Virus record (IMG/VR): IMGVR_UViG_2974646641_000001
Location: 1-64,000 of that record
Length of the DNA: 64,000 nucleotides
Strand: one strand, 5' to 3'
From: a virus
Lineage: Duplodnaviria; Caudoviricetes
This document shows positions 662 to 64,000 of this stretch, one piece after another. The translations under genes and the position numbers were made by a program. The first letter of the stretch is position 1; each line of letters opens with the position of its first letter. The notes beneath the pieces are model-generated. The model made no database searches and had not been told where the DNA came from. It worked only from the letters and a program-made list of their open reading frames with translations.

Positions 662-862
662 TTGTCGAACAATCACAAATTAACTCTTATTAAAGCTATC
701 CTGTATGCGAGTGATTATGTTACAGAAGACGAAAAGCTCAATGCGATTCGCCACTTGATTCACGGCTGGGATAAAGAGCCAAATATTGAATCTCAAAAAC
801 CTTGGCTAGACGACTTATCCGTTGAAACCAGAGATATTATCAAAAGCCTATCTGACGACTAA
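662..862 (+). CDS. hypothetical protein (66 aa)
   Basis: TTG start preceded by AAAGGAGGT SD; no recognisable motif. Confidence 0.65.
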   Translation: MSNNHKLTLIKAILYASDYVTEDEKLNAIRHLIHGWDKEPNIESQKPWLDDLSVETRDIIKSLSDD

Positions 863-1075
863 ACCTCTCCTTTAATTCATTCATTTTCATTTTCCTTATT
901 CATACACTTTCCTCCTGTGAGAGATTAATTTCTCTCTACATATATACTCGGTGTGGCAGATAATTATTATCTAAAAAAACCGCTGTTCGGCGCACAACTG
1001 CGATGTCCCGCAATGTTTTCCTATGCCTTTTTCTATCGGGACTGTAAATAATAAGATTAGAGAGGAGTTTTTAAC

Positions 1076-1207
1076 ATGACACAAAACTGTCCGTCATGTT
1101 CGACTCCAGTTGAAATAGATAAAAAAGATGACTATGTTATTTGTCCGTATTGTGGTTCTCTACTTGAAGTAGACGGTGATGACCTTGAAGAATACACAAT
1201 CGGGTAG
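1076..1207 (+). CDS. small zinc-ribbon protein (43 aa, not in ORF track)
   Basis: SD AGAGGAG; MTQNCPSCSTPVEIDKKDDYVICPYCGSLLEVDGDDLEEYTIG with CxxC...CxxC. Confidence 0.7.
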   Translation: MTQNCPSCSTPVEIDKKDDYVICPYCGSLLEVDGDDLEEYTIG

Positions 1208-1211
1208 AGAT

Positions 1212-1616
1212 TTGTCCGTGTGTCCTTATTGCGGAATGATTGTTGACAAGAGTACGCATGATTGTCCTGTAAAAAGGAAACGTAACAATCATAACGCAAG
1301 GATAGCACGTCAAAATCAAACAATTACAGAAAAAGCTCTGACTTCTCAAAGATGGCGTTCTTTTAGAAAGAAAATCATTTTGAGAGATGGCGGTGAGTGT
1401 CAGCGTTGCTTAATAAAGCTACACAAGCACACGTATGATGATTTAACTGTACATCATATTCAGCCGCGTGTCAATCACCCAGAGCTGATGTATGACGAAT
1501 CAAATTGTGTTACGCTTTGTCGTGAATGCAATTTAGCCATGGGTCTAAATGGTATTGATTTCGACTGGAATTTAACAAAGACTACAATAAATTTAGATGA
1601 TACGCTTCATTTCTAA
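1212..1616 (+). CDS. HNH endonuclease, packaging-associated (HK97 gp74-like position)
   Basis: CQRC...LTVHHIQP...NCVTLCRECN; directly upstream of terS; TTG at 1212 preferred over ATG 1176, which overlaps the upstream ORF. Confidence 0.85.
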   Translation: MSVCPYCGMIVDKSTHDCPVKRKRNNHNARIARQNQTITEKALTSQRWRSFRKKIILRDGGECQRCLIKLHKHTYDDLTVHHIQPRVNHPELMYDESNCVTLCRECNLAMGLNGIDFDWNLTKTTINLDDTLHF

Positions 1617-1630
1617 AGGGAGGTGAACAC

Positions 1631-2137
1631 ATGCCTAACGCTAGAAAACCTGCGGCGCTAGTTAAGGGTCACAACGAATCAGCTTCATCTTTAAAGAAAA
1701 GAATGGAAGATGAGGAGCGACTTAAAGGTGCTACTGACGAGGTACGTGTGGCACCTGACTTTATCAAAGGGTGGGAAACTGCCGAAAAATATTATGATTA
1801 TATCTGTGACCTGTTAGAAGACTCGGATATTCTTTCTAATTTAGATAGAATGGGTGTCGGGGCGCTTGCTGAATGCCTTGCCCGAATGGAAGAATCAAAT
1901 AAGGCAATGGCAGAAGATGGTGGTAATCTTATGATTACCGTTGAAACTAAAAACGGATATAAGACAATTGAAAATCCTTATATTAAGACCCACCTTAAAT
2001 TCTTTGATAGATTCAGGGTGCTATCAACACAATATGGATTATCTCCATCAAGTCGGGCACAGCTAAGTGCGTTAACTATTGAAGATAGAAGTCAAGGTAA
2101 TAGCGCGCTTGAAAGTATTATTAACAGCGATGATTGA
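1631..2137 (+). CDS. terS: terminase small subunit (P27-like)
   Basis: MPNARKP N-terminus, ENPY...YGLSPSSRA motif, position before terL, GGGAGG SD. Confidence 0.85.
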   Translation: MPNARKPAALVKGHNESASSLKKRMEDEERLKGATDEVRVAPDFIKGWETAEKYYDYICDLLEDSDILSNLDRMGVGALAECLARMEESNKAMAEDGGNLMITVETKNGYKTIENPYIKTHLKFFDRFRVLSTQYGLSPSSRAQLSALTIEDRSQGNSALESIINSDD

Positions 2138-2232
2138 TGATATTATTTCCTAGTCTTGATTAGGCTAGGGTACATATTTAGCTCAATGAGCAATACAGCG
2201 AGGTAGTTTTCAACTCGCTTATGTTACATAGA

Positions 2233-2306
2233 CGGGATATAGGACAGCTTGGTAGTTCACTCGGTTTGGAACCGAGACGTCGCTGGTTCAAATCCAGCTA
2301 TCCTGA
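2233..2306 (+). tRNA. tRNA-Pro(TGG), CCA not encoded
   Basis: Acceptor CGGGATA/TATCCTG, anticodon arm CTCGG-TTTGGAA-CCGAG, T arm GCTGG-TTCAAAT-CCAGC. Confidence 0.9.
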
Positions 2307-2334
2307 TAGTTAGTTCATTGAAAGGAAGAAAAGT

Positions 2335-2828: not shown

Positions 2829-2988
2829 TTAAGTTAAACGTGCCCGCGTCTCATAAACGGGCCTTATAAACACAGCACTTTTGCATTAATATGGTTGGAG
2901 GGTCACCATATTGCCCGGCAGAGGCTTTGTATCTGGCCGCTAGTCCTGATAAGTGACGTCTACTTATCCGACCCCATACATAATCGCA

Positions 2989-3103: not shown

Positions 3104-3222
3104 TGTAGCTTAATTACAATAAAGTAAAACGTTTCTTGGTGTTTTCTTTCCATGTTCTTTTAAACCAAGAGTACATAAAATGTAGATTTTACAGTCTATA
3201 TTATAGCATATAATGAGGTGAT

Positions 3223-6405: not shown

Positions 6406-7615
6406 ACAAAAAGAATTACGGACACTTAGTTTTGAAACACGGGATTTATCTTTTGACGATAAATCTTTAAAGGTATCTGGTTATGTAAACAGAGCTGGCT
6501 CTTACAGCCAAGTAATGTCTGCTGATGGTGCCCCTTTCCGTGAAACTATTTTGCCGCAAGCATTTGTTGAAGCCGTTAAAACAAAAGACCCGATTGATTT
6601 TTATGCGGAGCATGACGCTCAAAAGCTACTGGCAACCACTGTTAATCATTCATTGACGCTCCGTGCAGACGATGACGGTCTGTATATGGAAGCACAAATC
6701 CTAGACACGAATGATGGTCGTGACACATACGAACTTATCAAGAGCGGTGTTATCACGAGTATGAGTTTTGGATTTATCGTCCTTGATGATGAGTGGGATA
6801 GGTCTGGTGGCCGATTTAATGACGGTATTCCGCTACGAACCGTCAAAGAAATTAGCTTAAAAGAAGTATCTGCGGTACGTTTCCCTGCTTATCTAAGTTC
6901 AAGTATTGAAGCTCGTGGCCTTAAAGAGTTAAAAGAACTTGAACATAGGGGTATTAATAGCGTATCGGAAGTTGTTAATATTAAGGAGGGAAACAACTTG
7001 GAACTACGAGATGTAGAAACCAAAGATTTATTCGCTGAATTAGAACGGCGTGCAAAGCTTCCGGCAAACGAAGTTATCGTAAAGCCTAAAAAGCGTGCAA
7101 AACTTCCAGCCAATGAAGTAATTGTGAAACCCAAAAAACGTGATGATACACCATCTGATGATGATTTAACCGATGACGGCCAAGTAGAATCAGAAGACGC
7201 ACAAGCTCCGTCACAAACTATTGACATTGATGAATTGACAGACCGTATTGTCGCTTCTATCTTGGAAGGTATTAAAACTTCGTTGGCTAAACGCGATGGT
7301 GAGGGCGATGTTCCTGAACCAGACGGTTCTGATATGCCAGATGATAACACTGAAACTGATTCAATGAAACCAGATAAGCGTGCAAAGCTTCCAGCGAATG
7401 AAGTTATTGTAAAGCCAAAAAAACGTGATGATACACCAGATAATGGTGAAAACACTGGCGAATCAGATGGCAAACCTAACGATAAATCAAAAACCGATTC
7501 TAAAGGTAACAATGAAGACGGGTCGGAAGATGACACTAGAGCTTGCAAAAACGCTGAAAAGCGCAGTATGGAAGCACGTGAATTATTAAAAGAAATTAAT
7601 GATTTGGAGGTCTAA
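6395..7615 (+). CDS. prohead maturation protease (HK97 gp4/U35) with long acidic C-terminal scaffold-like extension
   Basis: AEHD, SMSFGF, EVSAVRFPAY motifs; C-terminal half low-complexity with repeats. Confidence 0.9.
   Translation: MTIKQKELRTLSFETRDLSFDDKSLKVSGYVNRAGSYSQVMSADGAPFRETILPQAFVEAVKTKDPIDFYAEHDAQKLLATTVNHSLTLRADDDGLYMEAQILDTNDGRDTYELIKSGVITSMSFGFIVLDDEWDRSGGRFNDGIPLRTVKEISLKEVSAVRFPAYLSSSIEARGLKELKELEHRGINSVSEVVNIKEGNNLELRDVETKDLFAELERRAKLPANEVIVKPKKRAKLPANEVIVKPKKRDDTPSDDDLTDDGQVESEDAQAPSQTIDIDELTDRIVASILEGIKTSLAKRDGEGDVPEPDGSDMPDDNTETDSMKPDKRAKLPANEVIVKPKKRDDTPDNGENTGESDGKPNDKSKTDSKGNNEDGSEDDTRACKNAEKRSMEARELLKEINDLEV
7049..7440 (+). repeat. three copies of the RAKLPANEVIVKPKK(RDDTP) coding repeat
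   Basis: Copies at 7049, 7094 and 7379, identical in protein but with synonymous DNA differences. Confidence 0.9.
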
Positions 7616-7618
7616 TTA

Positions 7619-8908
7619 GTGAAAACAAAGAAAGGTCTTTTGGAAAAGCGCTCGGCTTTAAAGAGCAAGCTGAACGACTTTAAACCAGTTATTGAAGATG
7701 GCACTATTACTGACGAACAATTAGAAGAAATGCGTTCTATCAAGTCAGATATTGTTTCTATCAATGACGAAATCGCAAGTTTAGATGAACAACGCAGTAG
7801 CGCCATTCCTACACAACATAATACACGAGGAGCTGAAAAAAATATGGCAGATTTAAAGAAACTTGAAAAGCGGGCGGCCGCAGAATTATTCCGCGACAAC
7901 ATGCAAGGTAGCAAAGCGGTTCGTGACTATATTGAAGCCGTAAAAGAACATGATGAAGGTCTTGATGTAGAAGACCGTGCACTACCAGACAATGGTTTAT
8001 CATGGGGCCAAGCCGTTGACGGTCAAAAAGCCAACGGTGGTGTTCTCGTTCCTACGACCGTTGCTGATACTATTGTTGAAAAGTTACAAGAAACTTCACC
8101 AGTGTTTGCATTATCAAACAAGATTGGTTCTGTAACTGGTAACTTACGGGTTGTTCGTGAAAGTGATACTTCCGATGATGGTTTCGTTGGTGAACTTGAA
8201 GAAGTAAAAGCACAAACTCCATCATTGAAGTATGTTGAATTAACTCAAAAGCGTGTCGGTGCTTCAATGCAATTATCGAACATGATGATTAACGATGGTG
8301 CTCCTGACATTGTTAGCTACGCTGTTGGCCGTTTGGGCCGTTCATTAGCTAAGGCTATCGAACGCGCCGTATTAGTTGGTGCTAAGACTCCCGAAGCCGC
8401 TTCAAAGACTTTCCGCCCAGTTGTTGCCGCAGATAACGGCGTTCAAGTCGTTCAATTGGCCGGTGCAACTCCTACGTTGGACGAATTGATTGAATTAACA
8501 GCCTCAATTAACCCAGCATATTTAGACCGTGCCGTATTTGTAGTATCTCGTGAAGTGTTCAACGCTTTATCCAAGATGAAAGATGATGATAACGAACACT
8601 TAATCTTCAAGCCACAAATGCAAAACACTATTGCCGGCGCTGTGGCTGTTCGGCCGGGATTCTCATTCCAAGGCATTCCTGTGTTCGTATCTGACCAATT
8701 GAACGGTAACGCAGATGGTCAAATCGTTTTAGGTAACTTTAGTGCTGGTTACACTATTATGACTAAACAAGGGTTGCGTTTAACTCACGTTACTGCTGAT
8801 ACGCAACAAGCACTTGCTGGTGGTCATTTGGTTGTTCTTGACGGCTACATGGACGGTGCTGTTACTAACCCTGACGCATTCGTAGTTGCTAAGCCTGCGA
8901 GTAAGTAA
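7619..8908 (+). CDS. major capsid protein (HK97 fold, N-terminal coiled-coil delta domain)
   Basis: GGVLVPTTVADTIVEKL, FVGELEE, GIPVFVSDQL...LGNFS motifs; follows the protease. Confidence 0.93.
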   Translation: MKTKKGLLEKRSALKSKLNDFKPVIEDGTITDEQLEEMRSIKSDIVSINDEIASLDEQRSSAIPTQHNTRGAEKNMADLKKLEKRAAAELFRDNMQGSKAVRDYIEAVKEHDEGLDVEDRALPDNGLSWGQAVDGQKANGGVLVPTTVADTIVEKLQETSPVFALSNKIGSVTGNLRVVRESDTSDDGFVGELEEVKAQTPSLKYVELTQKRVGASMQLSNMMINDGAPDIVSYAVGRLGRSLAKAIERAVLVGAKTPEAASKTFRPVVAADNGVQVVQLAGATPTLDELIELTASINPAYLDRAVFVVSREVFNALSKMKDDDNEHLIFKPQMQNTIAGAVAVRPGFSFQGIPVFVSDQLNGNADGQIVLGNFSAGYTIMTKQGLRLTHVTADTQQALAGGHLVVLDGYMDGAVTNPDAFVVAKPASK

Positions 8909-9033
8909 TCCGGCTCCCGCGGTCACTGGCGTTACCCCTAACGTGAATAGCGCTACGGTGGTAGCTAAGTAATAAGCCCGATTATTAAACCTCCTCATTT
9001 GAGGAGGTGTACATATCTACATGATAGGAGGTA

Positions 9034-9495
9034 ATGTCCTTGGCAAAGAATTTTGATGTTTATGATAACACGGACAAAAAGGTCGTAACTAATCAACCGT
9101 CCCCCGTTGTTATTTCGGGACTTTCCCCAGCCACCAAGTATTCTGGTTATAAGATTGCCTACACTGGCGAAAGTGCAAAGACAACGATTGATGACTTTAC
9201 AACTACTAACCAAGTGCCCGGCAAGCCGTCATTAGCGGTTAGCGCTGGTGACGGTAAATTAGATGTCACCTTCTCTGACGGTCAGAATGTCGGCACAGCA
9301 GTCACTAAGCGCACTGTTTACTGGAAAACAGCAGATGGCCACAACGGCACTGCCGATTTCGGTACGTCATTAACCGGCTCGGTTGACGGCTTAACAAACG
9401 GCACGGAATATACATTACAAGGTATATGTACAAACGCCGCTGGCGATTCTGAAAAATCAGATGAAGTAAAAGGTACTCCAGTCGCGGCTGGATAA
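9034..9495 (+). CDS. fibronectin type III/Ig-like virion decoration protein
   Basis: VISGLSPATKY, GLTNGTEYTLQ...NAAGDSEKS FN3-like signatures. Confidence 0.7.
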   Translation: MSLAKNFDVYDNTDKKVVTNQPSPVVISGLSPATKYSGYKIAYTGESAKTTIDDFTTTNQVPGKPSLAVSAGDGKLDVTFSDGQNVGTAVTKRTVYWKTADGHNGTADFGTSLTGSVDGLTNGTEYTLQGICTNAAGDSEKSDEVKGTPVAAG

Positions 9496-9535
9496 TCCTA
9501 CCCCGTTTTTCGGGGGTACATAGGAGGTGTAATAG

Positions 9536-9823
9536 ATGTCGGTGACAATTGATGACTTTAAGAATCAAATTAACGCAGATTCTGATGAAGATGTTGATTT
9601 ATATTTTAACCATGCTGTTGATTACGTCAATTTTTACGTGTCAAGAGTCGCTGGTCAATTCGAGGGTGTTCGTGAAAAACAATTTGAGGCTATTGTAGAT
9701 AGAGCTGTATTAGAAGTTGCTACGACCCTATACTTGAAACGTGACGGAGCGCCCGTCAGTGGCACTGTTAATTCCTCCTCACTAGAAACCATTATGAATT
9801 ATGGTAGAAACTTCTCAATCTAG
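9536..9823 (+). CDS. head-tail connector (gp6-like)
   Basis: Size, position, AVLEVATTLYLKRDG motif. Confidence 0.75.
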   Translation: MSVTIDDFKNQINADSDEDVDLYFNHAVDYVNFYVSRVAGQFEGVREKQFEAIVDRAVLEVATTLYLKRDGAPVSGTVNSSSLETIMNYGRNFSI

Positions 9824-9839
9824 TTAGTGGGGTGATAAG

Positions 9840-10259
9840 ATGGCAAATAAGGTTGACCTATGGCGTTACAAAGAAAAGTTAGAACTTGGCACAAACGACT
9901 CGTGGGTAGAGCTTGACAACGGAAACATTATCAACTCTGGAGCTGATATTAATGACGATACATTTGATGTTAAGTATACTTTTCATTGCGCACAATATCG
10001 AGTATCAGATAGAAATATTACGAGTGTTGACGGAATGAATGATGAAGATACAATCGTGGTTGCCGTTAAACACAGACCAAACTTTGACTATGATAGTTAC
10101 CGAGCTAGATTTAGAAAGAAGTATTATATCGTAACCTACATCGTACCAGATACCGCCGCAATCGTATCGTATGACTTATTATCACTAAAATCAGTCATTA
10201 AGAACGGTGGTTCATCTGGTGCTTCCGATTCATTTGGGGGTGGCACATTTGGCGACTAA
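9840..10259 (+). CDS. head-tail adaptor/closure protein
   Basis: Synteny and size. Confidence 0.65.
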   Translation: MANKVDLWRYKEKLELGTNDSWVELDNGNIINSGADINDDTFDVKYTFHCAQYRVSDRNITSVDGMNDEDTIVVAVKHRPNFDYDSYRARFRKKYYIVTYIVPDTAAIVSYDLLSLKSVIKNGGSSGASDSFGGGTFGD

Positions 10260-10701: not shown

Positions 10702-10704
10702 GAT

Positions 10705-11082: not shown

Positions 11083-11103
11083 AAAAGAAAGAGGTAATCA
11101 ATA

Positions 11104-53919: not shown

Positions 53920-55501
53920 CCAAAACGAATTAAAGGCATTAATCCCACAAAGCCAGATTTTTGGAGTGTTAGGTGTTCTATTAAATAACCCGGAAAAATT
54001 ACTTTCAGATAACGTATGCTTGGACAAAGAAGATTTTCAGAACAAGGTTCACCGCATTATCTTCTTTGCAATCAACAACATTATTAAAGAATCGCAACAC
54101 TTAAAAGAAATATCAGCAATTGACGTTGACACATATCTAACGCAGTTTGAGCAGTATCATTCAATCTTTGCTTCTGCCAAAGGAATTGATTACATTCAAT
54201 CAGCAAAAGACAACGCCAACGTTGGTACGTTTAACTCAAACTACCATTATCTAAAGAAGATGACGGTGCTTCGTAAGTTTGCAGAAAAGGGTATCGACAT
54301 TAGCGATATTTATGATATTCACACCGAGGACGTTAAGCTGTTGGAAGACCAACAAAAACGGCTTAGCCAATTATCGGAGGAAGACATTGTCAACCACTTT
54401 ACTCAAATCGTCAGTGGTATTAGAAATGAAGTTTCAGATTGGCAAAATAATTCATCGTCTTTCTCTGCTGGTGATGATATTGAGGACTTTATTGAACATA
54501 TCAATGACGCCCCTCAGTATGGATATGGATTTAAAGATAGCTTCATGAACTCGTTAACGGGTGGTATGCAATTCGGAAAGCTATTCTTACGTTCAATGAA
54601 AACCGGTGGTGGGAAGACTCGTTTAGGACTTTTAGACTTGATTAACGTGTCTATCACAGAACAGTACAACTGGCATACTAAAAAGTGGGTTAAAAATGAT
54701 GATGTTGAGCCATCTTTATTTATCTCAACAGAGCTGGATAAACATGAAATTCAAATGATTCTGTTGTCAGCAATCACTAATTTAACACCAGAAATCATTC
54801 GGCGTGGGAACTACGACCCAGCAACAAAGAAGACTATTGCTCATGCCGCAGAGGTTTTGCACGATTCGCCAATGCACTTCAAGGAAATCCAAGATTTCAG
54901 TATTGACGATGTCATGTCAATCATTGACGAATATGTTTTTAATTATGACGTGAAATACGTCAACTTCGATTATATTCAAGCAGTACCGAAGCTATTGCGA
55001 ACTGGTTCTGAACTTTACGGCGGACGTGATATTCGTGACGACCGTATCTTGTTAGCCTTGACCGACAAGCTTCGTAACAAGGCCAAGGAACTCGATATTT
55101 TCATTCAGTCAGCAACGCAGATTTCACCATCTGGTGAACTTGATTATGAATACAGCCGCACTGAACGTGCCTTACGTGACTCTAAATCAATCGCTGATAA
55201 GATTGACGTTGGCGTAATTTCAGCCGAAGTTAATGGAAAAGACTTGAAGAATTTGGAAAACTTAATTAATAACGCTGACGTTAACCCCTATGGTCTGGAA
55301 CCTAACATGGGTCACTTCATTTATAAGAACCGTCTTGGAAAGAAATCGGTAGTTATTTGGACGTACACAAACCTAGGTACACTGTATAGCTATCCTTTGT
55401 TCGTGACCGATTACAACTACAACTTAGTTGATGTACCGAGAACTAAAATTACAGTTGGCAGTGATGGAAAATTTGGTGTTGATGAAGATTTAGTTTTTTA
55501 G
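53897..55501 (+). CDS. dnaB: replicative DNA helicase (DnaB-like)
   Basis: DnaB N-domain pattern, TGGGKT, ISTE, FDYIQ, ATQ, SKSIADKID. Confidence 0.88.
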   Translation: MEMIYLINQNELKALIPQSQIFGVLGVLLNNPEKLLSDNVCLDKEDFQNKVHRIIFFAINNIIKESQHLKEISAIDVDTYLTQFEQYHSIFASAKGIDYIQSAKDNANVGTFNSNYHYLKKMTVLRKFAEKGIDISDIYDIHTEDVKLLEDQQKRLSQLSEEDIVNHFTQIVSGIRNEVSDWQNNSSSFSAGDDIEDFIEHINDAPQYGYGFKDSFMNSLTGGMQFGKLFLRSMKTGGGKTRLGLLDLINVSITEQYNWHTKKWVKNDDVEPSLFISTELDKHEIQMILLSAITNLTPEIIRRGNYDPATKKTIAHAAEVLHDSPMHFKEIQDFSIDDVMSIIDEYVFNYDVKYVNFDYIQAVPKLLRTGSELYGGRDIRDDRILLALTDKLRNKAKELDIFIQSATQISPSGELDYEYSRTERALRDSKSIADKIDVGVISAEVNGKDLKNLENLINNADVNPYGLEPNMGHFIYKNRLGKKSVVIWTYTNLGTLYSYPLFVTDYNYNLVDVPRTKITVGSDGKFGVDEDLVF

Positions 55502-55513
55502 AGGTATGGGAAA

Positions 55514-56551
55514 ATGAAATATTATAAGAGTGATTTAAACAAAGTTATTGATTATTATGGTTTTGATTATCGGGAGGGAAATGGAAATTGTCAATTAAGA
55601 ACTTACTGTCACCACCACGATGGTGACGGAAACTACAAACTATATGCTTATTTTGATGACGATGAATCAGTTCATCTCTATTGTTATTCGAGTTGTGGTT
55701 CTATGGACTTGGTCGGCTTCATCATGCACTACAAAGATTGCAATTACTACACAGCCCAGAATGAAATCGACATGATTGTTGGCAGGCGCCATCAAGTCGG
55801 TTTTGTGGCACAGGAGTTATATAATCCAGCAAAGCAACTTGAAAAGAGGCATGAGAATAAAAGCTCTGCTGACATAAAAAGGTTGAGTGCCGAGATTTTA
55901 AGTTCTTATAGCAATTATGCCTACGAGGGCTGGGTGAATGAGGGGATTAGCACTGAAACGCAAGCGAAGTTCGGCATTCGGTTCTCAATCCCTGATAATA
56001 AAGTGATAATTCCGCAAGTCGATAAAGATGGTGAATTGATTGGGGTTCGTGGTCGTAGCTTAGACCAGTATGAAGTTGAAACTTACGGCAAGTATCGGCC
56101 AGTGACATTCAGAGGCCAGACGCTATCGTTCCCGACCAGCTTGAACTGGTATGGCCTATACCAGAACAAAGAAATAATCATGAAGACGAAACAGGTGATT
56201 ATCTTTGAATCTGAAAAGTCGGTTATGCAGTTAGATACGATGATGAACGGACACGGTAATGGTTTGGCACTTTCTGGTTCAAGTATTTCTGATTGGCAGA
56301 TAAGAGAGCTGATGAATCTGGATATAAATGAGGTTGTTGTTGGTCTTGATAAAGACTATAAAGATGAGGCCGGTTATAATCTTCATGCCAACTTGATTGT
56401 GAAGATGTTTAGCAAACTACTACTTAGATTCAATGTGACAGTTATATTTGATGATGTGGACGGTTTGCTTGGCTATAAGGACAGCCCCACTGATTGTGGT
56501 AAAGAAACATTTCTAAAACTAATGAAAACTAGGAAGGTAATGAGTTTATGA
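55514..56551 (+). CDS. dnaG: DNA primase (zinc-binding + TOPRIM)
   Basis: CHH...CYSSCG, GVRGRSL, IFESEKS, GLDKD. Confidence 0.85.
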   Translation: MKYYKSDLNKVIDYYGFDYREGNGNCQLRTYCHHHDGDGNYKLYAYFDDDESVHLYCYSSCGSMDLVGFIMHYKDCNYYTAQNEIDMIVGRRHQVGFVAQELYNPAKQLEKRHENKSSADIKRLSAEILSSYSNYAYEGWVNEGISTETQAKFGIRFSIPDNKVIIPQVDKDGELIGVRGRSLDQYEVETYGKYRPVTFRGQTLSFPTSLNWYGLYQNKEIIMKTKQVIIFESEKSVMQLDTMMNGHGNGLALSGSSISDWQIRELMNLDINEVVVGLDKDYKDEAGYNLHANLIVKMFSKLLLRFNVTVIFDDVDGLLGYKDSPTDCGKETFLKLMKTRKVMSL

Positions 56552-58290
56552 GAATTGTAAAAAGTGACGAAGATTTAGCGAACGACCAGATTGACGGGTT
56601 CAATATTAATATTTTGCCAAAGACTGTGGGGAATATGGTCGAGCAAGCGATTGAATATCGAAAACATCACGTCTGGGACACGAGTGATGGCTCTATTGAT
56701 GTTGATGATTTGCCGTATAAGTCCGAGTTGAACAGGATAGCTGATGACTTACACGAAAACAACCGTAGAATCGCTATCCTAGTCGATGTCGATGTGGACG
56801 GTTATTGTTCGTCAGCCATCATCTATAAGGCGTTGAAAGCCGTTAACGAGAAGCTGGATATTGATACTTTGCTTCCGAATGCTAAGTTGCACGGTATCAA
56901 AGCCAACATTGACTTGGTCAAGAAGGATTATGATTATCTATTCTTGCCTGATAGTTCAGCTAACGACTTGCACACGATTGCAGAGCTGGAAAAGAGCGGA
57001 ACAAAATGCGTTGTTATTGACCACCATATTATTGAACAGGAACCGTATCTATTGGACAACCCCGATAAGTTCTTGATTTGTAGCAATCAATATCAAGATT
57101 CAGAACTAGACCGTAACTTGACTGGTGCGGGTATGGCATTACTGGTTACTAAACTCTGGAAGCAGAAGTACGATATTGAGCTTAATTATGACTTGGCGGC
57201 CTTGGGACAGATTGCAGATATGAGTAATCTGGACGATAAAGACATTTGGGAAATTGTTCAAAAAGGGTTAGCGAATATGAACAGCAAAATGTTGACGACT
57301 TTCTTTGAAGATGACCTAGAACTTCTCACGGTTAAACACTTGCAATTTAGTTTAATACCCCGTATCAATGCTGTGTCACGAATTGGTGAACACGAAGACC
57401 GCGAACTTATCTTTGACGCTTTGATTGACCAAGATGAATTAAAACCCGTGAGTGTTCGTCATAAAGGACAAGACGGTAAATTTCACACGGAAACCGTCAA
57501 AATGGACGTTTACAGCCGTGCAAAACGAACACTGGATAAAGTAAAAGGACGTCAAGATAGACTGGTTAAAAAGGCTCTAAAGGACGTTGAGTTTCTCACT
57601 AACAGAAATGATAATTTCAACGTAGCTGTACTAGACAAGAAATACGACAAAGGGATTTCGGGTTTAGTCGCGAACAAAATGCTCGGCAATACTAAGCAAC
57701 CAACATTGGTAGTAAAACGAAACGGTGAGCGCCTAGACGGTTCTGGACGCTTTCCAGTGACAATTAATGGATTGCAACTGTTACAAGGCGTTAATGCTTT
57801 CGCCGCAGGTCATGAGCAGGCATTCGGTGTTGGTTTTAAGGCTAACCAGTTTGACGATGTTTCAGAAGCGATTGGAATAGCCGTCAATGACGCTCCTGAT
57901 TATGTTTATCGTGTTGATGAAGCGTTAGTTAACGAATTGCCAAGTGTAGCAGAAATTAGAGCAATCTATCAAAGTTCCAAAACGTTCCGTGGCGCAAAAG
58001 ACGAGCCACTTATAGCTGTGCTCGGACTAAAGGTTGAGAAACGAAACATCACATTGAAGAATAATTGGCTAAAAATCACATTAGGAGATATTATAGTTAA
58101 CGACTTTAATGCGACAGACGACATTAAACGCTACGTTGAGTCTGGCTTCGGCGACAAATGTTTTAGTTTTGTTTGTTCGGCAGGGTTTAATTTCTGGACT
58201 GGGCGACCGATTCCGACATTAACTGTTGAGAAATTAGTTAAAAGTGATGGTGTTGAGGTCGGGGTTACTAAGGATAACTTCATCTTCTAA
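56548..58290 (+). CDS. recJ: RecJ-like ssDNA exonuclease (DHH)
   Basis: DVDVDG, IDHH, LTGAG, IADM, PRINA, GSGR, GHEQAFG. Confidence 0.9.
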   Translation: MRIVKSDEDLANDQIDGFNINILPKTVGNMVEQAIEYRKHHVWDTSDGSIDVDDLPYKSELNRIADDLHENNRRIAILVDVDVDGYCSSAIIYKALKAVNEKLDIDTLLPNAKLHGIKANIDLVKKDYDYLFLPDSSANDLHTIAELEKSGTKCVVIDHHIIEQEPYLLDNPDKFLICSNQYQDSELDRNLTGAGMALLVTKLWKQKYDIELNYDLAALGQIADMSNLDDKDIWEIVQKGLANMNSKMLTTFFEDDLELLTVKHLQFSLIPRINAVSRIGEHEDRELIFDALIDQDELKPVSVRHKGQDGKFHTETVKMDVYSRAKRTLDKVKGRQDRLVKKALKDVEFLTNRNDNFNVAVLDKKYDKGISGLVANKMLGNTKQPTLVVKRNGERLDGSGRFPVTINGLQLLQGVNAFAAGHEQAFGVGFKANQFDDVSEAIGIAVNDAPDYVYRVDEALVNELPSVAEIRAIYQSSKTFRGAKDEPLIAVLGLKVEKRNITLKNNWLKITLGDIIVNDFNATDDIKRYVESGFGDKCFSFVCSAGFNFWTGRPIPTLTVEKLVKSDGVEVGVTKDNFIF

Positions 58291-58295
58291 AATTA

Positions 58296-58322
58296 AGAGC
58301 AGAAATGCTCTTTTTTATTTTT
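58296..58322 (+). terminator. intrinsic terminator
   Basis: AAGAGCA-GAAA-TGCTCTT followed by a T-run. Confidence 0.8.
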
Positions 58323-58340
58323 GCGTTTTTTTAAGAAGTG

Positions 58341-58461
58341 TTGACATTTGGTAGAATACGCAGTATAATTGATTCATAAATTAAAGGGAAGAGGTAATAT
58401 GAATGAAAAATCAAGATTATTTTAAATGATGGTTGACATAGACGATGTATTCTGGTAAAAT
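58341..58461 (+). promoter_or_regulatory. tandem promoters flanking an 8-codon minigene (58399-58425)
   Basis: TTGACA-17-TATAAT (58341-69) and TTGACA-17-TAAAAT (58433-61). Confidence 0.75.
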
Positions 58462-58494
58462 ACAGAGTGTGATAAGAAAAAAGGAGTGATAGTA

Positions 58495-58815
58495 ATGCGA
58501 GAGCTAACACAAGCAGAGGCTTACGAATTATCTGTTAGAAGTAAAGCAACCAAAAGCAATCTAGGTAGCCTAGACGATGATAAACAAAAGGTAATGAGGG
58601 ATATTCTTTCACTGACTGGTTTTGGTTTTGATGTCACAATTTCTGTCTACAAAAACCAAGATTGTCGAGGATATTTTGAGCCAGAAGATTTACTGTTGAA
58701 GAACTACAAGGGAATCAAAAAGTGGTTAAAATCACTTGGCTATAAGGTCGAATTATTTCCGGCCGCTTGGATTCCTTGCGAACAACACTTTTTAACTGTT
58801 GATTGGAGGAAATAA
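58495..58815 (+). CDS. hypothetical protein
   Basis: AAGGAG SD. Confidence 0.6.
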   Translation: MRELTQAEAYELSVRSKATKSNLGSLDDDKQKVMRDILSLTGFGFDVTISVYKNQDCRGYFEPEDLLLKNYKGIKKWLKSLGYKVELFPAAWIPCEQHFLTVDWRK

Positions 58816-58818
58816 ATC

Positions 58819-58992
58819 ATGAAATTTAGGAAACCAACAAAATTACACAAACACCATTGGGTTTTGGTAACTGACCAGCCTTGGCTAAAAACATTCGGAG
58901 GTTTATCAGTTTTGCACTGTTCTATCTGTGGTCAGGTTACGAACGTCCCGAAAGATTGTGTAGACAAAATTGAAGCTAAAACACGTTTATAG
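58819..58992 (+). CDS. small HxH/CxxC protein (57 aa, not in ORF track)
   Basis: GGAGG SD; MKFRKPTKLHKHHW...LHCSICGQ. Confidence 0.6.
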   Translation: MKFRKPTKLHKHHWVLVTDQPWLKTFGGLSVLHCSICGQVTNVPKDCVDKIEAKTRL

Positions 58993-59004
58993 GAGGAATT
59001 GAAA

Positions 59005-59385
59005 ATGAAGATTAAAAAGTATCTAAGCACGGTATTTGATGATACCAACCGAAAAGTTTATTTATTTAATCCACGAACAGGTAAGACGAAATCAGCACCA
59101 TCAGGGCTATCTTTCACGGTTACATTATTTGGGCCAATTGCTCCGTTATTCCGAGGTGATTTTCTAGGGTTCCTATTAATTTTAGCGATTTACGTTTTTA
59201 CTGGTTTTAATCCATTTATTAATATCTTGGGAATTTTGTTAACCTCGGTTTTCTATAATTACTTTTACATCTCACACAAAATCAACAGTGGCTACACAGT
59301 AATGTCAGACGAAGGTAAGAAAATGCTGTTAGACCACGGCTATGACGTTAATACGACTATCTATCGAGGTGATTACCATGAATAA
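59005..59385 (+). CDS. membrane protein
   Basis: GLSFTVTLFGPIAPLFRGD + TM helices. Confidence 0.6.
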   Translation: MKIKKYLSTVFDDTNRKVYLFNPRTGKTKSAPSGLSFTVTLFGPIAPLFRGDFLGFLLILAIYVFTGFNPFINILGILLTSVFYNYFYISHKINSGYTVMSDEGKKMLLDHGYDVNTTIYRGDYHE

Positions 59386-59710
59386 ACTATTAAAAATGAT
59401 TGCACTACTTGCTTCTTACTGGATTGTGTTGTACACTGTATATCAATATACTGATATTCTAAAAGGCCCCGGATTTAAGCACGCAGTGTTCATGATTGTC
59501 TTGACAACACTGTACACGTATTTGTTGTCGGCCATCAATAAAGAAACGTTCAGTTTGACTTTCAGCATTCCAGCCATGATTTTCTATGTAATTGGGGTTG
59601 CTGGTTACGTCATCTGTGCAGGTGCAGGGTTTGGTAATGGTGCCGCTTGGTTAGTATCAATCGTGGCGACAGCATTCCTAATTACTGGGGTAGTGGAATT
59701 TAATGAATGA
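59378..59710 (+). CDS. four-TM membrane protein
   Basis: Hydrophobic helices; GAGGTG SD. Confidence 0.6.
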   Translation: MNKLLKMIALLASYWIVLYTVYQYTDILKGPGFKHAVFMIVLTTLYTYLLSAINKETFSLTFSIPAMIFYVIGVAGYVICAGAGFGNGAAWLVSIVATAFLITGVVEFNE

Positions 59711-61719: not shown

Positions 61720-61820
61720 TCGCTAAAAATAACGAATAAAATGGTAATTTTACCAAGAAAACAGTTGACAAAAGCGTGCCAGTTTGGTACGCTGTACATA
61801 CAATAAAGGAGGAATGTGAT

Positions 61821-62252
61821 ATGGATATTGGTTTTGCGGCTGGTACTAAGGTGCTAATCAAAAAAGGACAAAAGAATATTGAGAGTGTCACGACCAGAGA
61901 TGAAGTCTTGACAGCCAACGGCACCTATCGGAAAGTGTCACAAAAGATGACTGACAAGTCGGACGATATTTATGAACTGAAAATTCTGTTTCAACCTGAC
62001 ACTAAAGTCACTGGAAACCAACGCTACTGTATTAGGCGAAAAATGGAAGATGGTTATTCACTGTCGAGGTGGGTGCCAGTCAATGACGTTAATGTTGGTG
62101 ATTTGGTAATTGTCTATGTGTTGGACGACACAGCCCCTGTTCATAGACCAGTTAAAGGTATTAAAAAACTGAACGAGGGGCAAAAAGTTTATAGCTTAAA
62201 AACCAATGAAAAACACAGCTTTACAGCCAATGGCGCTGTGGTTCATGATTAA
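61821..62252 (+). CDS. free-standing Hint (intein-like) domain protein with substituted catalytic residues
   Basis: GFAAGTKVL (block A), TGNQRY (block B), VYSLKTNEKHSFTANGAVVHD* (blocks F/G); AAGGAGG SD. Confidence 0.8.
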   Translation: MDIGFAAGTKVLIKKGQKNIESVTTRDEVLTANGTYRKVSQKMTDKSDDIYELKILFQPDTKVTGNQRYCIRRKMEDGYSLSRWVPVNDVNVGDLVIVYVLDDTAPVHRPVKGIKKLNEGQKVYSLKTNEKHSFTANGAVVHD

Positions 62253-62263
62253 AGGAGGAAATA

Positions 62264-62635
62264 ATGGATAATTTAAAGTTTCGTGCATGGATTAAAAAGG
62301 CCGATGGTACTTGCGACAAAGTTAGCCCTATGACAATTCAACAGATGTTACGGCAAGAAACGGCACTTGGATTAGTGTCTTTAGGGGTAACGGATTTAGA
62401 GCAATCAACTAACATTAAAGATAAGAACGGAGAAATTATTTTTGACGGTGACATTGTTCATTTATCAACTCACGATGGATATAAACGAACTGGTCAGGTT
62501 GAGGTTGAAAATGGCCGAGTTAGGATTGTTAGCGAATTAGATTCTTATTCTTTCAGCCGAACTGGTTCCGAAAGTGATACCTTGGAAGTCGTTGGTAATG
62601 TACACGAGGACAAAGAATTATTGGAGAAGGAATAA
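62264..62635 (+). CDS. YopX-family protein
   Basis: KFRAW...QSTNIKDKNGEIIFDGDIV...EVVGNVHE. Confidence 0.8.
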   Translation: MDNLKFRAWIKKADGTCDKVSPMTIQQMLRQETALGLVSLGVTDLEQSTNIKDKNGEIIFDGDIVHLSTHDGYKRTGQVEVENGRVRIVSELDSYSFSRTGSESDTLEVVGNVHEDKELLEKE

Positions 62636-62637
62636 AA

Positions 62638-62916
62638 ATGGACGATGATTTTGAATATGCTGACGCTGTGCTTGTCCAAGTCGACTCAAATGGTAAGGCA
62701 GAAGAATTATGGCTACTGTCAGACGAAGATTTCTTAGACTATATTATTAAAAATGGCATTGATTGTGACTATGCTGTCAAAGGGTTTAAGGCGTGGACAA
62801 TTGCCAAAAGAATTAAGCGTAATGGGTGGCGTCCTACTCTAAAGCAAAGAACCGCAATCACTAACGTGTTCTGTTTTACTCTATATGGAGTGACGCCAAA
62901 TTGGTTAATAAATTAA
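62638..62916 (+). CDS. hypothetical protein
   Basis: GAAGG SD. Confidence 0.6.
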   Translation: MDDDFEYADAVLVQVDSNGKAEELWLLSDEDFLDYIIKNGIDCDYAVKGFKAWTIAKRIKRNGWRPTLKQRTAITNVFCFTLYGVTPNWLIN

Positions 62917-62932
62917 TTAAGGAGGAAAACTT

Positions 62933-63412
62933 ATGATTAAGTTTAGAGCGTGGGACAAGAGAATCGAAGCTTATCTTTATAATGTACAAGACGCTTATGA
63001 CACGTTGAGCGGCTTCGTAAAATATGACGATGGTGAAGACGCTGACTATGATGAGGATTGCTTTGGAGCATTCTTAGATAATAAACGGTATGACGTTGAG
63101 CAGTTTACCGGATTGAAAGACGTGAACGGTAAGGAAATCTATGTTGGCGATATTATCCAGTATAACGAACATTACTACGCATATTCTATGGGTGGAGTAA
63201 CAAATATCAAAACTGAATATATTGGAATTGTTGTTAAAAATAATTGGTCTTTAGGGATTTTAATTAATAAAGTTATCCATACAGACGCGCATATCAATCA
63301 TTATAATACTAAAGAATTTGTGCCGTTTCGTGATTTTGAAGACCCAGAGGCAGATGTGTTGTTAAAGGGCAACGTTCACGCTAACCCAGAGCTATTGGAG
63401 GAAGACGAATGA
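62933..63412 (+). CDS. YopX-family protein
   Basis: IKFRAWD...QFTGLKDVNGKEIYVGDII...KGNVHANPELL. Confidence 0.85.
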   Translation: MIKFRAWDKRIEAYLYNVQDAYDTLSGFVKYDDGEDADYDEDCFGAFLDNKRYDVEQFTGLKDVNGKEIYVGDIIQYNEHYYAYSMGGVTNIKTEYIGIVVKNNWSLGILINKVIHTDAHINHYNTKEFVPFRDFEDPEADVLLKGNVHANPELLEEDE

Positions 63413-63816
63413 TTAAAGTTTATCGTAAAACAGCCACTATCAAGGCCGAACAGTTTGATAATAGTAGAGAGATGGCTAAAAAGTATCATGTTGAATATGA
63501 TGGAGCATACATTTTACCTTTCAGAATTGAAACCAAGAATGGGTGGCTAGGAATGAAAGTTGGTGACTGGATTTTAACTGATACAGACGGAAAGCACTGG
63601 CCGATTGCAGATGACGTATTCAAAAAGACGTATGACGAACTGCCAGTGATTCCTAAAGAGGTAGCGGATTATCTTGAAGTTGTCAGACAGGAAGAAACAC
63701 TGTTTGGTGTTTTAGATGAGGCACTAGCAGGGGTTAGCGACTTATCTCTGTGGATTGCTGAGAACCAAGATAATTTTGCCCGTGCGTGGCTAGACGGTTA
63801 TACGGTGGAGGAATAA
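63409..63816 (+). CDS. phage protein with DUF1642-like C-terminus
   Basis: PVIPKEVADYL...FARAWLDGYTVE. Confidence 0.65.
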   Translation: MIKVYRKTATIKAEQFDNSREMAKKYHVEYDGAYILPFRIETKNGWLGMKVGDWILTDTDGKHWPIADDVFKKTYDELPVIPKEVADYLEVVRQEETLFGVLDEALAGVSDLSLWIAENQDNFARAWLDGYTVEE

Positions 63817-63819
63817 AAA

Positions 63820-64000
63820 ATGAAAGTATATCTTAAACGGCCATTTCAGGCCGAAAAATTTGATGGTAGTGAAGAAATGAGAGAAAAATATCATATTGCT
63901 ATTGGAAGCGGCTGGGTAGCCCCTTATCGAATTAATACTCTTGAAGGCTGGGTGGGAGTACAAATTAACTCTTGGATTGCAACTGGTATTGATGGTGAGC
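63820..64000 (+). CDS. partial paralogue of the 63409 N-terminal domain (runs off window)
   Basis: MKVYLKRPFQAEKFDGSEEMREKYHI vs IKVYRKTATIKAEQFDNSREMAKKYHV. Confidence 0.65.
   Translation, partial: MKVYLKRPFQAEKFDGSEEMREKYHIAIGSGWVAPYRINTLEGWVGVQINSWIATGIDGE

What the first reader, a model, noticed from the sequence alone, without database searches (positions are those of the whole stretch)
662..64000. Strand-specific absence of TACATA from coding sequence
Seen (manual scan, needs computational confirmation): no TACATA on the sense strand of any CDS in about 58 kb of coding DNA. A crude base-composition estimate predicts on the order of 30. TACAT followed by C, G or T occurs about 20 times in + strand CDS (e.g. 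4210, 8846, 11421, 17792). The motif is freely present on the antisense strand of genes (TATGTA at 6482, 9425, 20386, 20447, 20451, 20681, 28071, 53694, 59585; TACATA at 34772 inside minus-strand dnaE). The only sense copies outside the late region are intergenic (41395-41400 on -, 61795-61800 on +). Inference: selection acts on RNA, not DNA, at a 6-nt word, as expected if an RNase cutting UACAUA is active during infection.
Basis: partly seen in the sequence, partly recalled or inferred. Interest (0 to 1): 0.88.

Follow-up and report, generated by a model that had tools for sequence, protein, structure and literature searches.

The report
Phage genes purged of MazF site
This Lactobacillus plantarum phage has no copy of UACAUA, the known cutting site of the Gram-positive RNA-cutting toxin MazF, on the message strand of any gene. 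It keeps 15 copies between genes, mostly just after RNA hairpins, so its messages look built to be cut only at chosen junctions.

Summary
TACATA occurs 27 times in the window: 0 in sense CDS, 12 in antisense CDS, 15 in sense intergenic DNA and 0 in antisense intergenic DNA. A synonymous-codon shuffle expects 9.5 sense-CDS copies, and a 5-mer Markov model expects about 6. TACATA is not the most depleted word overall, because restriction sites are. It is the top strand-asymmetric depletion and the second most enriched intergenic word after the Shine-Dalgarno.

UACAUA is the published strict cut site of Bacillota MazF/EndoA, and the phage carries an intact MazF homologue with no recognisable antitoxin, so the RNA-level reading is supported.

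L. plantarum phages without any MazF gene (LP65, phiJL-1) show the same purge, as do lytic phages of Listeria, Staphylococcus and Enterococcus. Lactococcus, Streptococcus and E. coli phages do not. The purge therefore needs only exposure to a UACAUA RNase, from host or phage.

What is largely specific to this phage's subfamily and to another MazF-carrying Lactobacillus phage is the retained intergenic copies. They sit directly 3' of stable hairpins at syntenic gene junctions, and the stems differ in sequence between genera. This suggests programmed mRNA cutting, but no cleavage is shown.

The scan has noted the same pattern before on other DNA.

The parts
40858..41220 (-). mazF-like gene (120 aa), PemK/MazF-family endoribonuclease toxin
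   Evidence: PF02452 matches at E 3e-22, 79 bits against a cut-off of 23. The best solved relatives are S. aureus MazF and B. subtilis EndoA at E about 5e-19; the S. aureus gene matches at about 40% identity. The catalytic Arg-Pro and Thr are conserved.
41254..41282 (-). Consensus sigma-A type promoter TTGACA-N17-TATAAT in front of mazF, followed by SD AAGGAGG
   Evidence: Read directly from the sequence. No transcription data.
40532..40885 (-). 117-aa ORF overlapping the mazF stop by 28 nt. No known family, so it is an untested antitoxin candidate
   Evidence: No Pfam hit. It is syntenic in Satyr, 8014-B2, Lenus and SA-C12 but absent in ATCCB and 3-521.
8989..9015 (+). Hairpin (8989-9008, -14.3 kcal/mol) plus TACATA (9010-9015). 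Lies after the major head gene, 18 nt before the next start
   Evidence: The position is conserved in Satyr, 8014-B2 and Lenus with altered stems.
9501..9522 (+). Hairpin CCCCG..CGGGG plus TACATA (9517-9522), directly abutting SD GGAGG, 13 nt before the head-tail adaptor gene
11779..11808 (+). TACATA (11779-11784) forming the 5' arm of a hairpin (11779-11802, -15.3 kcal/mol), followed by a free TACATA (11803-11808). Lies after the major tail gene
   Evidence: Contigs of two runs stop at 11777/11778 (weak hint only).
18169..18199 (+). Hairpin (18169-18193, -14.7 kcal/mol) plus TACATA (18194-18199). Lies between the tape measure gene and Dit
20016..20042 (+). Hairpin (20016-20036, -10.1 kcal/mol) plus TACATA (20037-20042). 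Lies between Dit and the next tail gene
30095..30119 (+). Hairpin (30095-30112, -11.3 kcal/mol) plus TACATA (30114-30119), 29 nt before the 30149 gene
919..942 (+). Hairpin (919-936, -7.2 kcal/mol) plus TACATA (937-942)
   Evidence: Conserved in Satyr and 8014-B2.
2149..2230 (+). Two hairpin-TACATA units (hairpin 2149-2169 with TACATA 2171-2176; hairpin 2197-2219 with TACATA 2225-2230). The second ends 2 nt before tRNA-Pro (2233-2306)
2943..2982 (+). Hairpin (2943-2972, -8.9 kcal/mol) plus TACATA (2977-2982), upstream of tRNA-Gly (3031-3103)
3172..3177 (+). TACATA 45 nt before the large terminase gene. Only a weak upstream structure
357..393 (+). Weak hairpin (-6.4 kcal/mol) plus TACATA (388-393), in non-coding DNA at the window's start
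41395..41434 (-). Sigma-A type promoter (TTGACA-N17-TATGCT) whose spacer and -10 box form a hairpin (41402-41427), with TACATA (41395-41400) at the predicted start site. Lies upstream of mazF
   Evidence: The same layout precedes mazF in 8014-B2 and Lenus.
61765..61800 (+). Sigma-A type promoter (TTGACA-N17-TACGCT) containing a hairpin (61773-61793), with TACATA (61795-61800) at the predicted start site, 16 nt before ATG 61817
   Evidence: The RefSeq start in Satyr is longer.
6482..59590 (.). The 12 antisense-CDS copies. TATGTA on + at 6482, 9425, 16216, 20386, 20447, 20451, 20681, 26517, 28071, 53694 and 59585, and TACATA on + at 34772 inside the minus-strand dnaE
   Evidence: Observed 12 against 14.3 expected.

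Best explanation
UACAUA is the cut site of a MazF/EndoA-type endoribonuclease that is active while this phage's mRNAs are in the cell.

Any message carrying the hexamer in single-stranded form would be cut, so the word has been removed from the sense strand of every gene. The antisense strand, which is not in the message, is untouched.

The enzyme could be the phage's own MazF. That gene is intact, has no recognisable antitoxin beside it and sits behind a consensus promoter. The enzyme could also be the host's chromosomal MazEF, or both. The purge alone cannot tell them apart.

The 15 sense copies that remain all lie between genes. Ten to twelve of them lie 0-5 nt after a stable hairpin, and most late-region copies lie 13-45 nt before the next start codon. 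I read these as programmed cut sites. Cutting at U^ACAUA would split the long late transcripts at gene junctions. The upstream piece would end in a hairpin that shields its 3' end. The downstream piece would start a few bases before its ribosome-binding site.

Shown: the counts, their statistics, the hairpins, their conservation across genera, and the gene family. Inferred: the specificity of the phage enzyme, that cutting occurs at these sites, and what it does to message stability.
For: 1. Distribution. There are 0 sense-CDS copies against 9.5 expected, 12 antisense against 14.3, 15 sense intergenic against 2.9, and 0 antisense intergenic.

2. Identity of the word. U^ACAUA is the strict in vivo site of B. 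subtilis EndoA (PMC11780869) and is reported as conserved for Listeria and S. aureus MazF (preprint). Only 8 of 4096 hexamers contain TACAT.

3. The null model behaves. With the same shuffle, phages of hosts whose genera are reported (Lactococcus not stated) or known to lack this type of MazF show little or no purge: KSY1 30/24.6, 949 23/34.7, Dp-1 3/7.9, T4 23/34.5. Lytic phages of Listeria (A511 3/48.4), S. aureus (K 8/54.1, 6ec 6/29.2), B. subtilis (SPO1 11/40.1) and E. faecalis (phiEF24C 16/45.2) show it. TACATA is the top strand-asymmetric word in four of these five.

4. Relatives. The purge replicates in 8014-B2 (2/15.1), Lenus (6/15.6), ATCCB (1/16.2) and Satyr (3 by my ORF calls, all spurious by RefSeq).

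5. Gene. The mazF is intact, with catalytic Arg-Pro and Thr. No antitoxin family is recognisable beside it. It has a TTGACA-N17-TATAAT promoter.

6. Hairpins. The median folding energy of the 32 nt before sense intergenic copies is -10.8 kcal/mol against -1.9 at random intergenic positions (p 2e-6). Ten of 15 have a strong hairpin ending within 4 nt, against 15 of 300.

7. Conservation. Six syntenic late junctions keep hairpin + TACATA + SD in three genera with unrelated stem sequences.

8. Link to MazF carriage. Hairpin-linked intergenic copies are concentrated in MazF-carrying phages: 69 of 151, 1.62 per kb, against 14 of 83, 0.48 per kb, in MazF-less phages (Fisher 8e-6).

9. The junctions are neither canonical terminators nor sigma-70 promoters.

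10. Weak hint. Contigs of a metatranscriptome run and of a second run of unconfirmed type (flagged as probably DNA), from another study, stop at 11777/11778, while a DNA-type contig runs through.
Against: - The purge does not need the phage gene. MazF-less L. plantarum phages LP65 (1/29.9) and phiJL-1 (0/5.3) have it too.
- The MazF-less phage phiEF24C also has hairpin-linked copies (7 of 15).
- The five Tybeckvirinae in the comparison are related, so the Fisher test overstates independence.
- Twenty-one clusters of other viral contigs that carry MazF homologues show neither purge (65 observed, 72 expected) nor a hairpin link (8 of 57).
- The phage enzyme is only about 40% identical to the characterised UACAUA enzymes. 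It has a 3-residue insertion in the beta1-beta2 loop, where B. subtilis Gly18 and Glu20 contact RNA.
- No RNA ends have been mapped, because all public runs were available only as contigs.
- Two copies (41395, 61795) sit at predicted transcription start sites, so they may not be fully present in the primary transcript.
Confidence: 0.65

Rival explanations
1. Host enzyme only. The purge is imposed by the host's chromosomal MazEF, released when infection shuts off host gene expression. The phage's mazF has another role, such as excluding competing phages. The intergenic copies are merely tolerated where a hairpin limits damage.
For: MazF-less phages of the same host and of other MazF-bearing hosts are purged equally. 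L. plantarum WCFS1 has an endogenous MazE/MazF pair (PMC10221531; PMC3519753). phiEF24C has hairpin-linked copies without a mazF. Carrying a mazF homologue does not by itself predict the pattern.
Against: Sense intergenic copies are 5-fold enriched over expectation here (15 against 2.9, with 0 antisense), not merely tolerated. They hold syntenic positions across three genera. The mazF is kept in every member of the subfamily examined, behind a consensus promoter. The specificity of the L. plantarum MazF is unknown, and a preprint reports the EndoA-type MazF as absent from the genus Lactobacillus.
Confidence: 0.25
2. DNA-level transcription signal. Hairpin + TACATA is a phage-specific late promoter, an initiator element or an unconventional terminator. 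The word is kept out of genes to avoid spurious signals.
For: Two copies sit exactly at the predicted start sites of sigma-A type promoters. All copies lie upstream of genes. Contig ends cannot tell a start from a cut.
Against: A bare hexamer without its hairpin would not act as a signal, yet the bare word is purged. Spurious antisense signals would be at least as harmful, yet the antisense strand is at expectation. The same word is purged in unrelated phages of Listeria and Staphylococcus, whose hosts' MazF cuts it. The stems differ in sequence between sites and genera, which argues for RNA structure rather than a protein-binding site. There is no U-tract or -35/-10 at the late junctions. One copy ends 2 nt before a tRNA.
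Confidence: 0.07
3. Composition or chance. Rare ATA codons, codon-pair bias or luck remove a low-frequency hexamer.
For: The conservative Markov expectation in this window alone is only about 6 (P about 0.002). Among 4096 words a few such zeros are expected.
Against: The shuffle keeps codon usage and still expects 9.5, with a minimum of 2 in 400. The reverse complement is at expectation. The same word is the top asymmetric depletion in several independent phages and is not depleted in Lactococcus phages of similar G+C. The intergenic enrichment on the same strand cannot come from codon effects.
Confidence: 0.02

Closest known systems
B. subtilis EndoA (MazF-Bs, ndoA) and its Listeria and S. 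aureus orthologues, cutting U^ACAUA (PMC11780869; bioRxiv 10.64898/2026.08.06.743204)
   Same: The hexamer is the same. The protein family is the same (PF02452), and the catalytic Arg-Pro and Thr are conserved. Those authors also report selection against the site in 16S rRNA of MazF-bearing species.
   Different: Here the gene is in a virulent phage, with no recognisable antitoxin upstream. It is about 40% identical and has an altered beta1-beta2 loop. The purge covers a whole phage coding complement, and the retained sites are organised after hairpins at gene junctions. None of this is described in those papers.
ACA under-representation in E. coli RNA phage genomes, attributed to MazF (PMC12151602)
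   Same: A phage genome depleted of the cut site of a MazF toxin.
   Different: That case is a 3-nt word in RNA genomes with a modest depletion (relative frequency 0.64-0.92). It involves no phage-borne enzyme and no retained, structured sites.
MazF interplay of the arbitrium phages phi3T and SPbeta (Guler et al., bioRxiv 10.1101/2023.04.27.537455; PMC10769878)
   Same: A Bacillota MazF acts on phage transcripts, and phages have evolved around it.
   Different: Those temperate phages are reported as enriched in UACAU and carry MazF inhibitors (AimX, YosL). This virulent phage is purged and carries a MazF.
Programmed processing of phage polycistronic mRNA, such as T7 RNase III sites and T4 RegB (from general knowledge, not checked here)
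   Same: Conserved intergenic RNA elements where a nuclease cuts long phage transcripts and leaves hairpin-ended stable products.
   Different: In T7 the host's double-strand-specific RNase III cuts inside the hairpin. Here the cutter would be a single-strand, hexamer-specific toxin cutting beside the hairpin, and the rest of the transcriptome is purged of the word.
ACA-less mRNA 'single protein production' with E. coli MazF (engineered system; from general knowledge, not checked here)
   Same: The logic is the same: messages without the toxin's site stay translatable while all others are destroyed.
   Different: That system is man-made. This would be a natural equivalent.

Membership tests
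PemK/MazF toxin family (PF02452) | Domain match above the curated cut-off over the full length | tested here: met
   79 bits against a cut-off of 23.1, profile positions 1-107 of 109.
PemK/MazF toxin family (PF02452) | Catalytic Arg (B. subtilis R25) with the following Pro, and catalytic Thr (T48) | tested here: met
   R33-P34 are invariant and T56 nearly invariant in 14 homologues. They align to the S. aureus MazF equivalents. Residue roles are as cited in PMC8634880.
Type II MazEF toxin-antitoxin module | Antitoxin gene (MazE, AbrB/SpoVT or RHH type) immediately upstream in one operon | tested here: not met
   The upstream 245 nt hold two promoters and only a 9-codon and a doubtful 44-aa ORF. 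No neighbour has an antitoxin family. The overlapping downstream 117-aa ORF is untested.
EndoA-type UACAUA-specific MazF subgroup | RNA-contacting beta1-beta2 loop residues (B. subtilis Gly18, Glu20) | tested here: not met
   The phage clade has (S/G)-S-(R/H)-D with a 3-residue insertion where the cellular enzymes have G-S-E (residues as cited in PMC8634880).
EndoA-type UACAUA-specific MazF subgroup | Cleavage of U^ACAUA and not of UACAU[C/G/U] | not testable with these tools
   Only indirect evidence. TACATA is 0 against 9.5 to 10.1 expected in sense CDS (9.5 window; 10.1 whole genome). On the whole genome TACATC is 6/11.3, TACATG 11/12.1 and TACATT 18/24.0.
Programmed nuclease processing sites in phage operons | Conserved position at gene junctions with a conserved structure but free sequence | tested here: met
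   Six syntenic junctions in four phages of three genera, with different stems and an invariant TACATA.
Programmed nuclease processing sites in phage operons | RNA 3' and 5' ends at the site | tested here: inconclusive
   Only assembled contigs were available. Contigs of a metatranscriptome run and of a second run flagged as probably DNA, from two studies, stop at 11777/11778 and one starts at 9009. This is a weak hint only.
Intrinsic (Rho-independent) terminators | G+C-rich hairpin followed by a U-tract | tested here: not met
   None of the late junction hairpins is called by the scan, and TACATA plus mixed sequence follows them.
Sigma-70/sigma-A promoters | -35 and -10 hexamers at 16-18 nt spacing | tested here: not met
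   Not present at the late junctions. Present only at 41395 and 61795, where TACATA lies at the predicted start.
Restriction-site (DNA-level) avoidance | Depletion of the word and its reverse complement alike, in coding and non-coding DNA | tested here: not met
   The reverse complement is at expectation in CDS (12 against 14.3), and the word is enriched between genes. True restriction-type words are absent on both strands.

The most novel reading that the evidence does not exclude
A subfamily of virulent Lactobacillus phages (Tybeckvirinae) uses an antitoxin-less MazF as a weapon against which it is itself immune, and also as its own mRNA-maturation enzyme. Every gene is free of the cut site, so the enzyme would destroy host messages only. 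Cut sites placed just after protective hairpins at gene junctions would turn the same enzyme into the tool that cuts long late transcripts into stable single-gene units. Primary transcripts from promoters that start inside TACATA would begin like the cut product.
Probability: 0.4. Interest if true: 0.85.

Novelty: new variant of a known kind. Interest (0 to 1): 0.72.

Why it matters
If the reading holds, it would be a natural case of a phage protecting its messages from a sequence-specific toxin RNase by rewriting its whole coding complement, while keeping the site as punctuation between genes.

- It would give toxin-antitoxin RNases a role in phage gene expression, beyond host defence.
- It offers a sequence-only way to infer the specificity of uncharacterised RNases, by looking for the strand-asymmetric missing word.
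- It predicts that sense-strand UACAUA avoidance marks phages of MazF-bearing Bacillota in general. I found this in Listeria, Staphylococcus, Enterococcus and Bacillus phages and did not find it in the papers I searched.
- In practice, it tells anyone who engineers these phages or expresses genes during infection to avoid UACAUA.

Tried and rejected
1. Host genome statistics. I found no route to an L. plantarum chromosome.
 - The genome-collection scan with the phage MazF returned only four unrelated MAGs.
 - Class-level sampling hides names.
 - The plasmid collection has no Lactiplantibacillus MazF hit at E 1e-8 and no L. plantarum chromosome-sized record.
 - Whether the host enzyme is of the UACAUA type therefore rests on literature that only shows a MazE/MazF pair exists.

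2. General link between carrying a mazF homologue and the purge. It is rejected. Twenty-one clusters of other IMG/VR contigs around mazF homologues show 65 observed against 72 expected, and 8 of 57 intergenic copies have hairpins.

3. Herelleviridae lineage effect as a confound. It is rejected, because the siphoviruses 6ec, P35, P40, phiJL-1 and the Tybeckvirinae show the purge too. SPP1 and phi29 show it only weakly.

4. RNA evidence. All public runs holding the phage are kept as contigs, so starts, ends and strand cannot be read. Parts without cover are not evidence.

5. Literature.
 - The structural paper on MazF-Bs with RNA (PMC4691852) is not held.
 - The paper on MazF counter-selection in L. 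plantarum uses the E. coli gene and was irrelevant.
 - Papers on these phages do not mention MazF.

6. I did not run a complex prediction of MazF with the overlapping 117-aa ORF, because the report does not claim that they bind.

Full report
**What the window is.** The window is bases 1-64000 of a 73.8-kb virus record. It is about 95% identical to the virulent Lactobacillus plantarum siphophages Satyr and Maenad of the subfamily Tybeckvirinae.
- The + strand from 662 to 31386 carries packaging, head and tail genes: large terminase, portal, protease, major head, adaptor, major tail, tape measure and Dit.
- The - strand from 31424 to 50607 carries replication and accessory genes, including a 1286-aa DnaE-like ORF and a PemK/MazF gene at 40858-41220.

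**The observation.** TACATA occurs 27 times on the two strands. I sorted the copies against 77 ORFs of at least 55 aa (58.2 kb).
- None lies on the sense strand of a gene.
- Twelve lie on the antisense strand of genes.
- Fifteen lie between genes in the direction of transcription.
- None lies between genes against it.
It missed two antisense copies (16216, 26517). Its count of 20 TACAT[CGT] in + strand CDS is exact.

**Is the absence more than chance or codon usage?**
- A shuffle of synonymous codons within each gene keeps protein sequence and codon usage. It expects 9.5 sense copies (sd 2.75); none of 400 shuffles had fewer than 2.
- The maximal-order Markov estimate is conservative, because the 5-mers are themselves thinned. 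It gives about 6.
- The reverse complement is at expectation (12 against 14.3).
- TACATA ranks only 58th among depleted hexamers. The words ahead of it are restriction-type sites missing from both strands: GATC 1 against 227 expected, GGATG, GCWGC, CCWGG, GGWCC and many 6-bp palindromes.
- Among words depleted on the sense strand only, TACATA is first.
- In transcribed-orientation intergenic DNA (6.7 kb) it is the second most enriched hexamer after AGGAGG, at 15 against 2.9 expected.

**What the word is.** U^ACAUA is the strict in vivo cut site of B. subtilis EndoA/MazF. UACAU followed by anything but A is not cut (PMC11780869). A 2026 preprint reports the same hexamer for the Listeria and S. 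aureus enzymes, and selection against it in 16S rRNA of MazF-bearing Bacillota.

**The phage gene.**
- It is a clear family member (79 bits).
- Its best solved relatives are S. aureus MazF and B. subtilis EndoA (E about 5e-19; about 40% identity to the S. aureus gene), with the catalytic Arg-Pro and Thr in place.
- Its beta1-beta2 loop differs, with a 3-residue insertion where Gly18 and Glu20 of the B. subtilis enzyme contact RNA. The specificity is therefore inferred, not shown.
- No neighbour has an antitoxin family.
- A TTGACA-N17-TATAAT promoter and a strong SD precede the gene.

Every relative carries mazF: Satyr, Maenad, 8014-B2, Gut-P1, Lenus, SA-C12, Nyseid and ATCCB. The purge replicates in the four relatives analysed. 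In the table below, observed and expected refer to sense-CDS copies under the synonymous shuffle.

| Group | Phage | Observed | Expected |
|---|---|---|---|
| Relatives (carry mazF) | 8014-B2 | 2 | 15.1 |
| | Lenus | 6 | 15.6 |
| | ATCCB | 1 | 16.2 |
| | Satyr | 3 | 10.4 |
| L. plantarum phages, no PemK/MazF gene | LP65 | 1 | 29.9 |
| | phiJL-1 | 0 | 5.3 |
| MazF-less lytic phages of hosts whose MazF cuts UACAUA | A511 (Listeria) | 3 | 48.4 |
| | K (S. aureus) | 8 | 54.1 |
| | 6ec (Staphylococcus) | 6 | 29.2 |
| | SPO1 (B. subtilis) | 11 | 40.1 |
| | phiEF24C (E. faecalis) | 16 | 45.2 |
| | P35 (Listeria) | 0 | 4.4 |
| | P40 (Listeria) | 1 | 4.9 |
| Controls | KSY1 (Lactococcus) | 30 | 24.6 |
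| | 949 (Lactococcus) | 23 | 34.7 |
| | Dp-1 (Streptococcus) | 3 | 7.9 |
| | T4 (E. coli) | 23 | 34.5 |

- Satyr's three copies fall in ORFs that RefSeq does not annotate.
- In LP65, TACATA is the top asymmetric word.
- The same purge therefore appears in phages of the same host that lack the gene, and in MazF-less lytic phages of other hosts whose MazF cuts UACAUA.
- The controls show little or no purge, so the null model is sound.
- The purge follows the host, not the phage family and not the phage gene. The wider claim, that an RNase cutting UACAUA acts on phage messages, is strengthened.
- L. plantarum WCFS1 has an endogenous MazE/MazF pair. I could not obtain a host genome to check its type.

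**What is special here.** The sense copies that survive are not scattered.
- Ten of 15 have a hairpin of -7 kcal/mol or better ending within 4 nt upstream, against 15 of 300 random intergenic positions. The median energy is -10.8 against -1.9 kcal/mol.
- Nine lie 13-45 nt before the next start codon, one directly abutting the SD.
- One ends 2 nt before tRNA-Pro.
- At six syntenic late junctions, four phages of three genera keep hairpin + TACATA + SD while the stems are unrelated in sequence. The junctions are after major head, the next gene, major tail, tape measure, Dit and the 29491 gene. An example is TTTGGGGG/CCCCCAAA against ACGAGGGG/CCCCTCGT against ATGGGGGA/TCCCCCAT. That is the signature of an RNA structure beside an invariant single-stranded word.
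- The junctions have no U-tract and no -35/-10.
- Hairpin-linked sense copies are concentrated in MazF-carrying phages. These are the Tybeckvirinae and, independently, the L. brevis myovirus 3-521. The figures are 69 of 151 copies at 1.62 per kb, against 14 of 83 at 0.48 per kb in MazF-less phages. phiEF24C is an exception, and the Tybeckvirinae are not independent of each other.
- Two copies (41395, 61795) lie at the predicted start sites of sigma-A type promoters whose spacers also form the hairpin. The same layout precedes mazF in 8014-B2 and Lenus. A transcript starting at the first A would begin ACAUA, like the downstream cut product, and would lack the U needed for cutting. This is inference only.

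**Limits.**
- Other viral contigs with mazF homologues (21 clusters) show neither purge nor hairpin link. Carrying a homologue is therefore not enough; many of these are probably temperate elements with ordinary toxin-antitoxin pairs or other specificities.
- Public runs that hold this phage are available only as contigs. Contigs of a metatranscriptome run and of a second run flagged as probably DNA, from two studies, stop at 11777/11778, just before TACATA 11779, while a DNA-type contig runs on. One contig starts at 9009. I count this as a weak hint only.

**Comparison with what is known.**
- Published work gives the cut site and its conservation.
- It describes MazF as a defence against arbitrium phages, which are reported as enriched in UACAU.
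- It reports a mild ACA depletion in E. coli RNA phages.
- My searches found no paper describing three things: a strand-specific purge of UACAUA from DNA phage genes, hairpin-guarded intergenic copies, or a phage-borne MazF used this way.
- The scan itself has noted the same pattern on other genomes. Those notes agree with my reading but are not independent evidence.

**Verdict.** The RNA-level, MazF-site reading is well supported, at about 0.9 for 'selection against a UACAUA-cutting RNase'. The attribution to the phage's own gene is open. The programmed-processing reading of the retained sites is plausible and testable, but no cleavage has been shown.

Noticed in passing
window 1-64000, both strands: Extreme avoidance of restriction-type words. 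GATC occurs once (227 expected). GGATG/CATCC occur 0/0 (49 each), GATGC/GCATC 1/0, GCWGC 1, CCWGG 1 and GGWCC 0 (57 each), and CTGAAG/CTTCAG 0/0. Eleven 6-bp palindromes (CTTAAG, TCTAGA, ATCGAT, AGTACT, ATGCAT, CAGCTG, AGGCCT, CTGCAG, GCTAGC, TCCGGA, GCATGC) are all absent.
   Followed up: partly
window 30149-31120 (+): The last gene of the late block matches tyrosine integrase families (phrog_1, E 1e-27), although the relatives are described as virulent.
   Followed up: no
window 39108-39929 (-): An HNH / I-HmuI-like NUMOD homing endonuclease lies between the transglycosylase and the mazF block.
   Followed up: no
Lactobacillus phage ATCCB (L021-L025), many intergenic sites: The antisense TACATA copies there are part of + strand promoter-like elements TATGTACA-N17-TATAAT. 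The reverse complement of the MazF site is built into the -35 region of about 15 putative promoters.
   Followed up: partly
Enterococcus phage phiEF24C (L105-L112): This phage has no PemK/MazF gene. Even so, 7 of its 15 sense intergenic TACATA copies follow a strong hairpin. Hairpin-guarded sites may therefore also exist where only the host supplies MazF.
   Followed up: no
Staphylococcus phage 6ec (L135-L139): There are 34-35 antisense intergenic TACATA copies in 12.8 kb of non-coding DNA, far more than sense copies. This suggests another repeated element that contains TATGTA.
   Followed up: no
window 7238-8980 and 10918-11777: In the metatranscriptome run X6, contigs over the major head and major tail genes have about twice the word depth of their neighbours. 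Contig depth is a poor measure, so this is only a remark.
   Followed up: no
8014-B2 record position 46114 (-), in L014: One of the two surviving sense-CDS TACATA copies in 8014-B2 lies in the conserved 178-aa gene two genes downstream of mazF.
   Followed up: no
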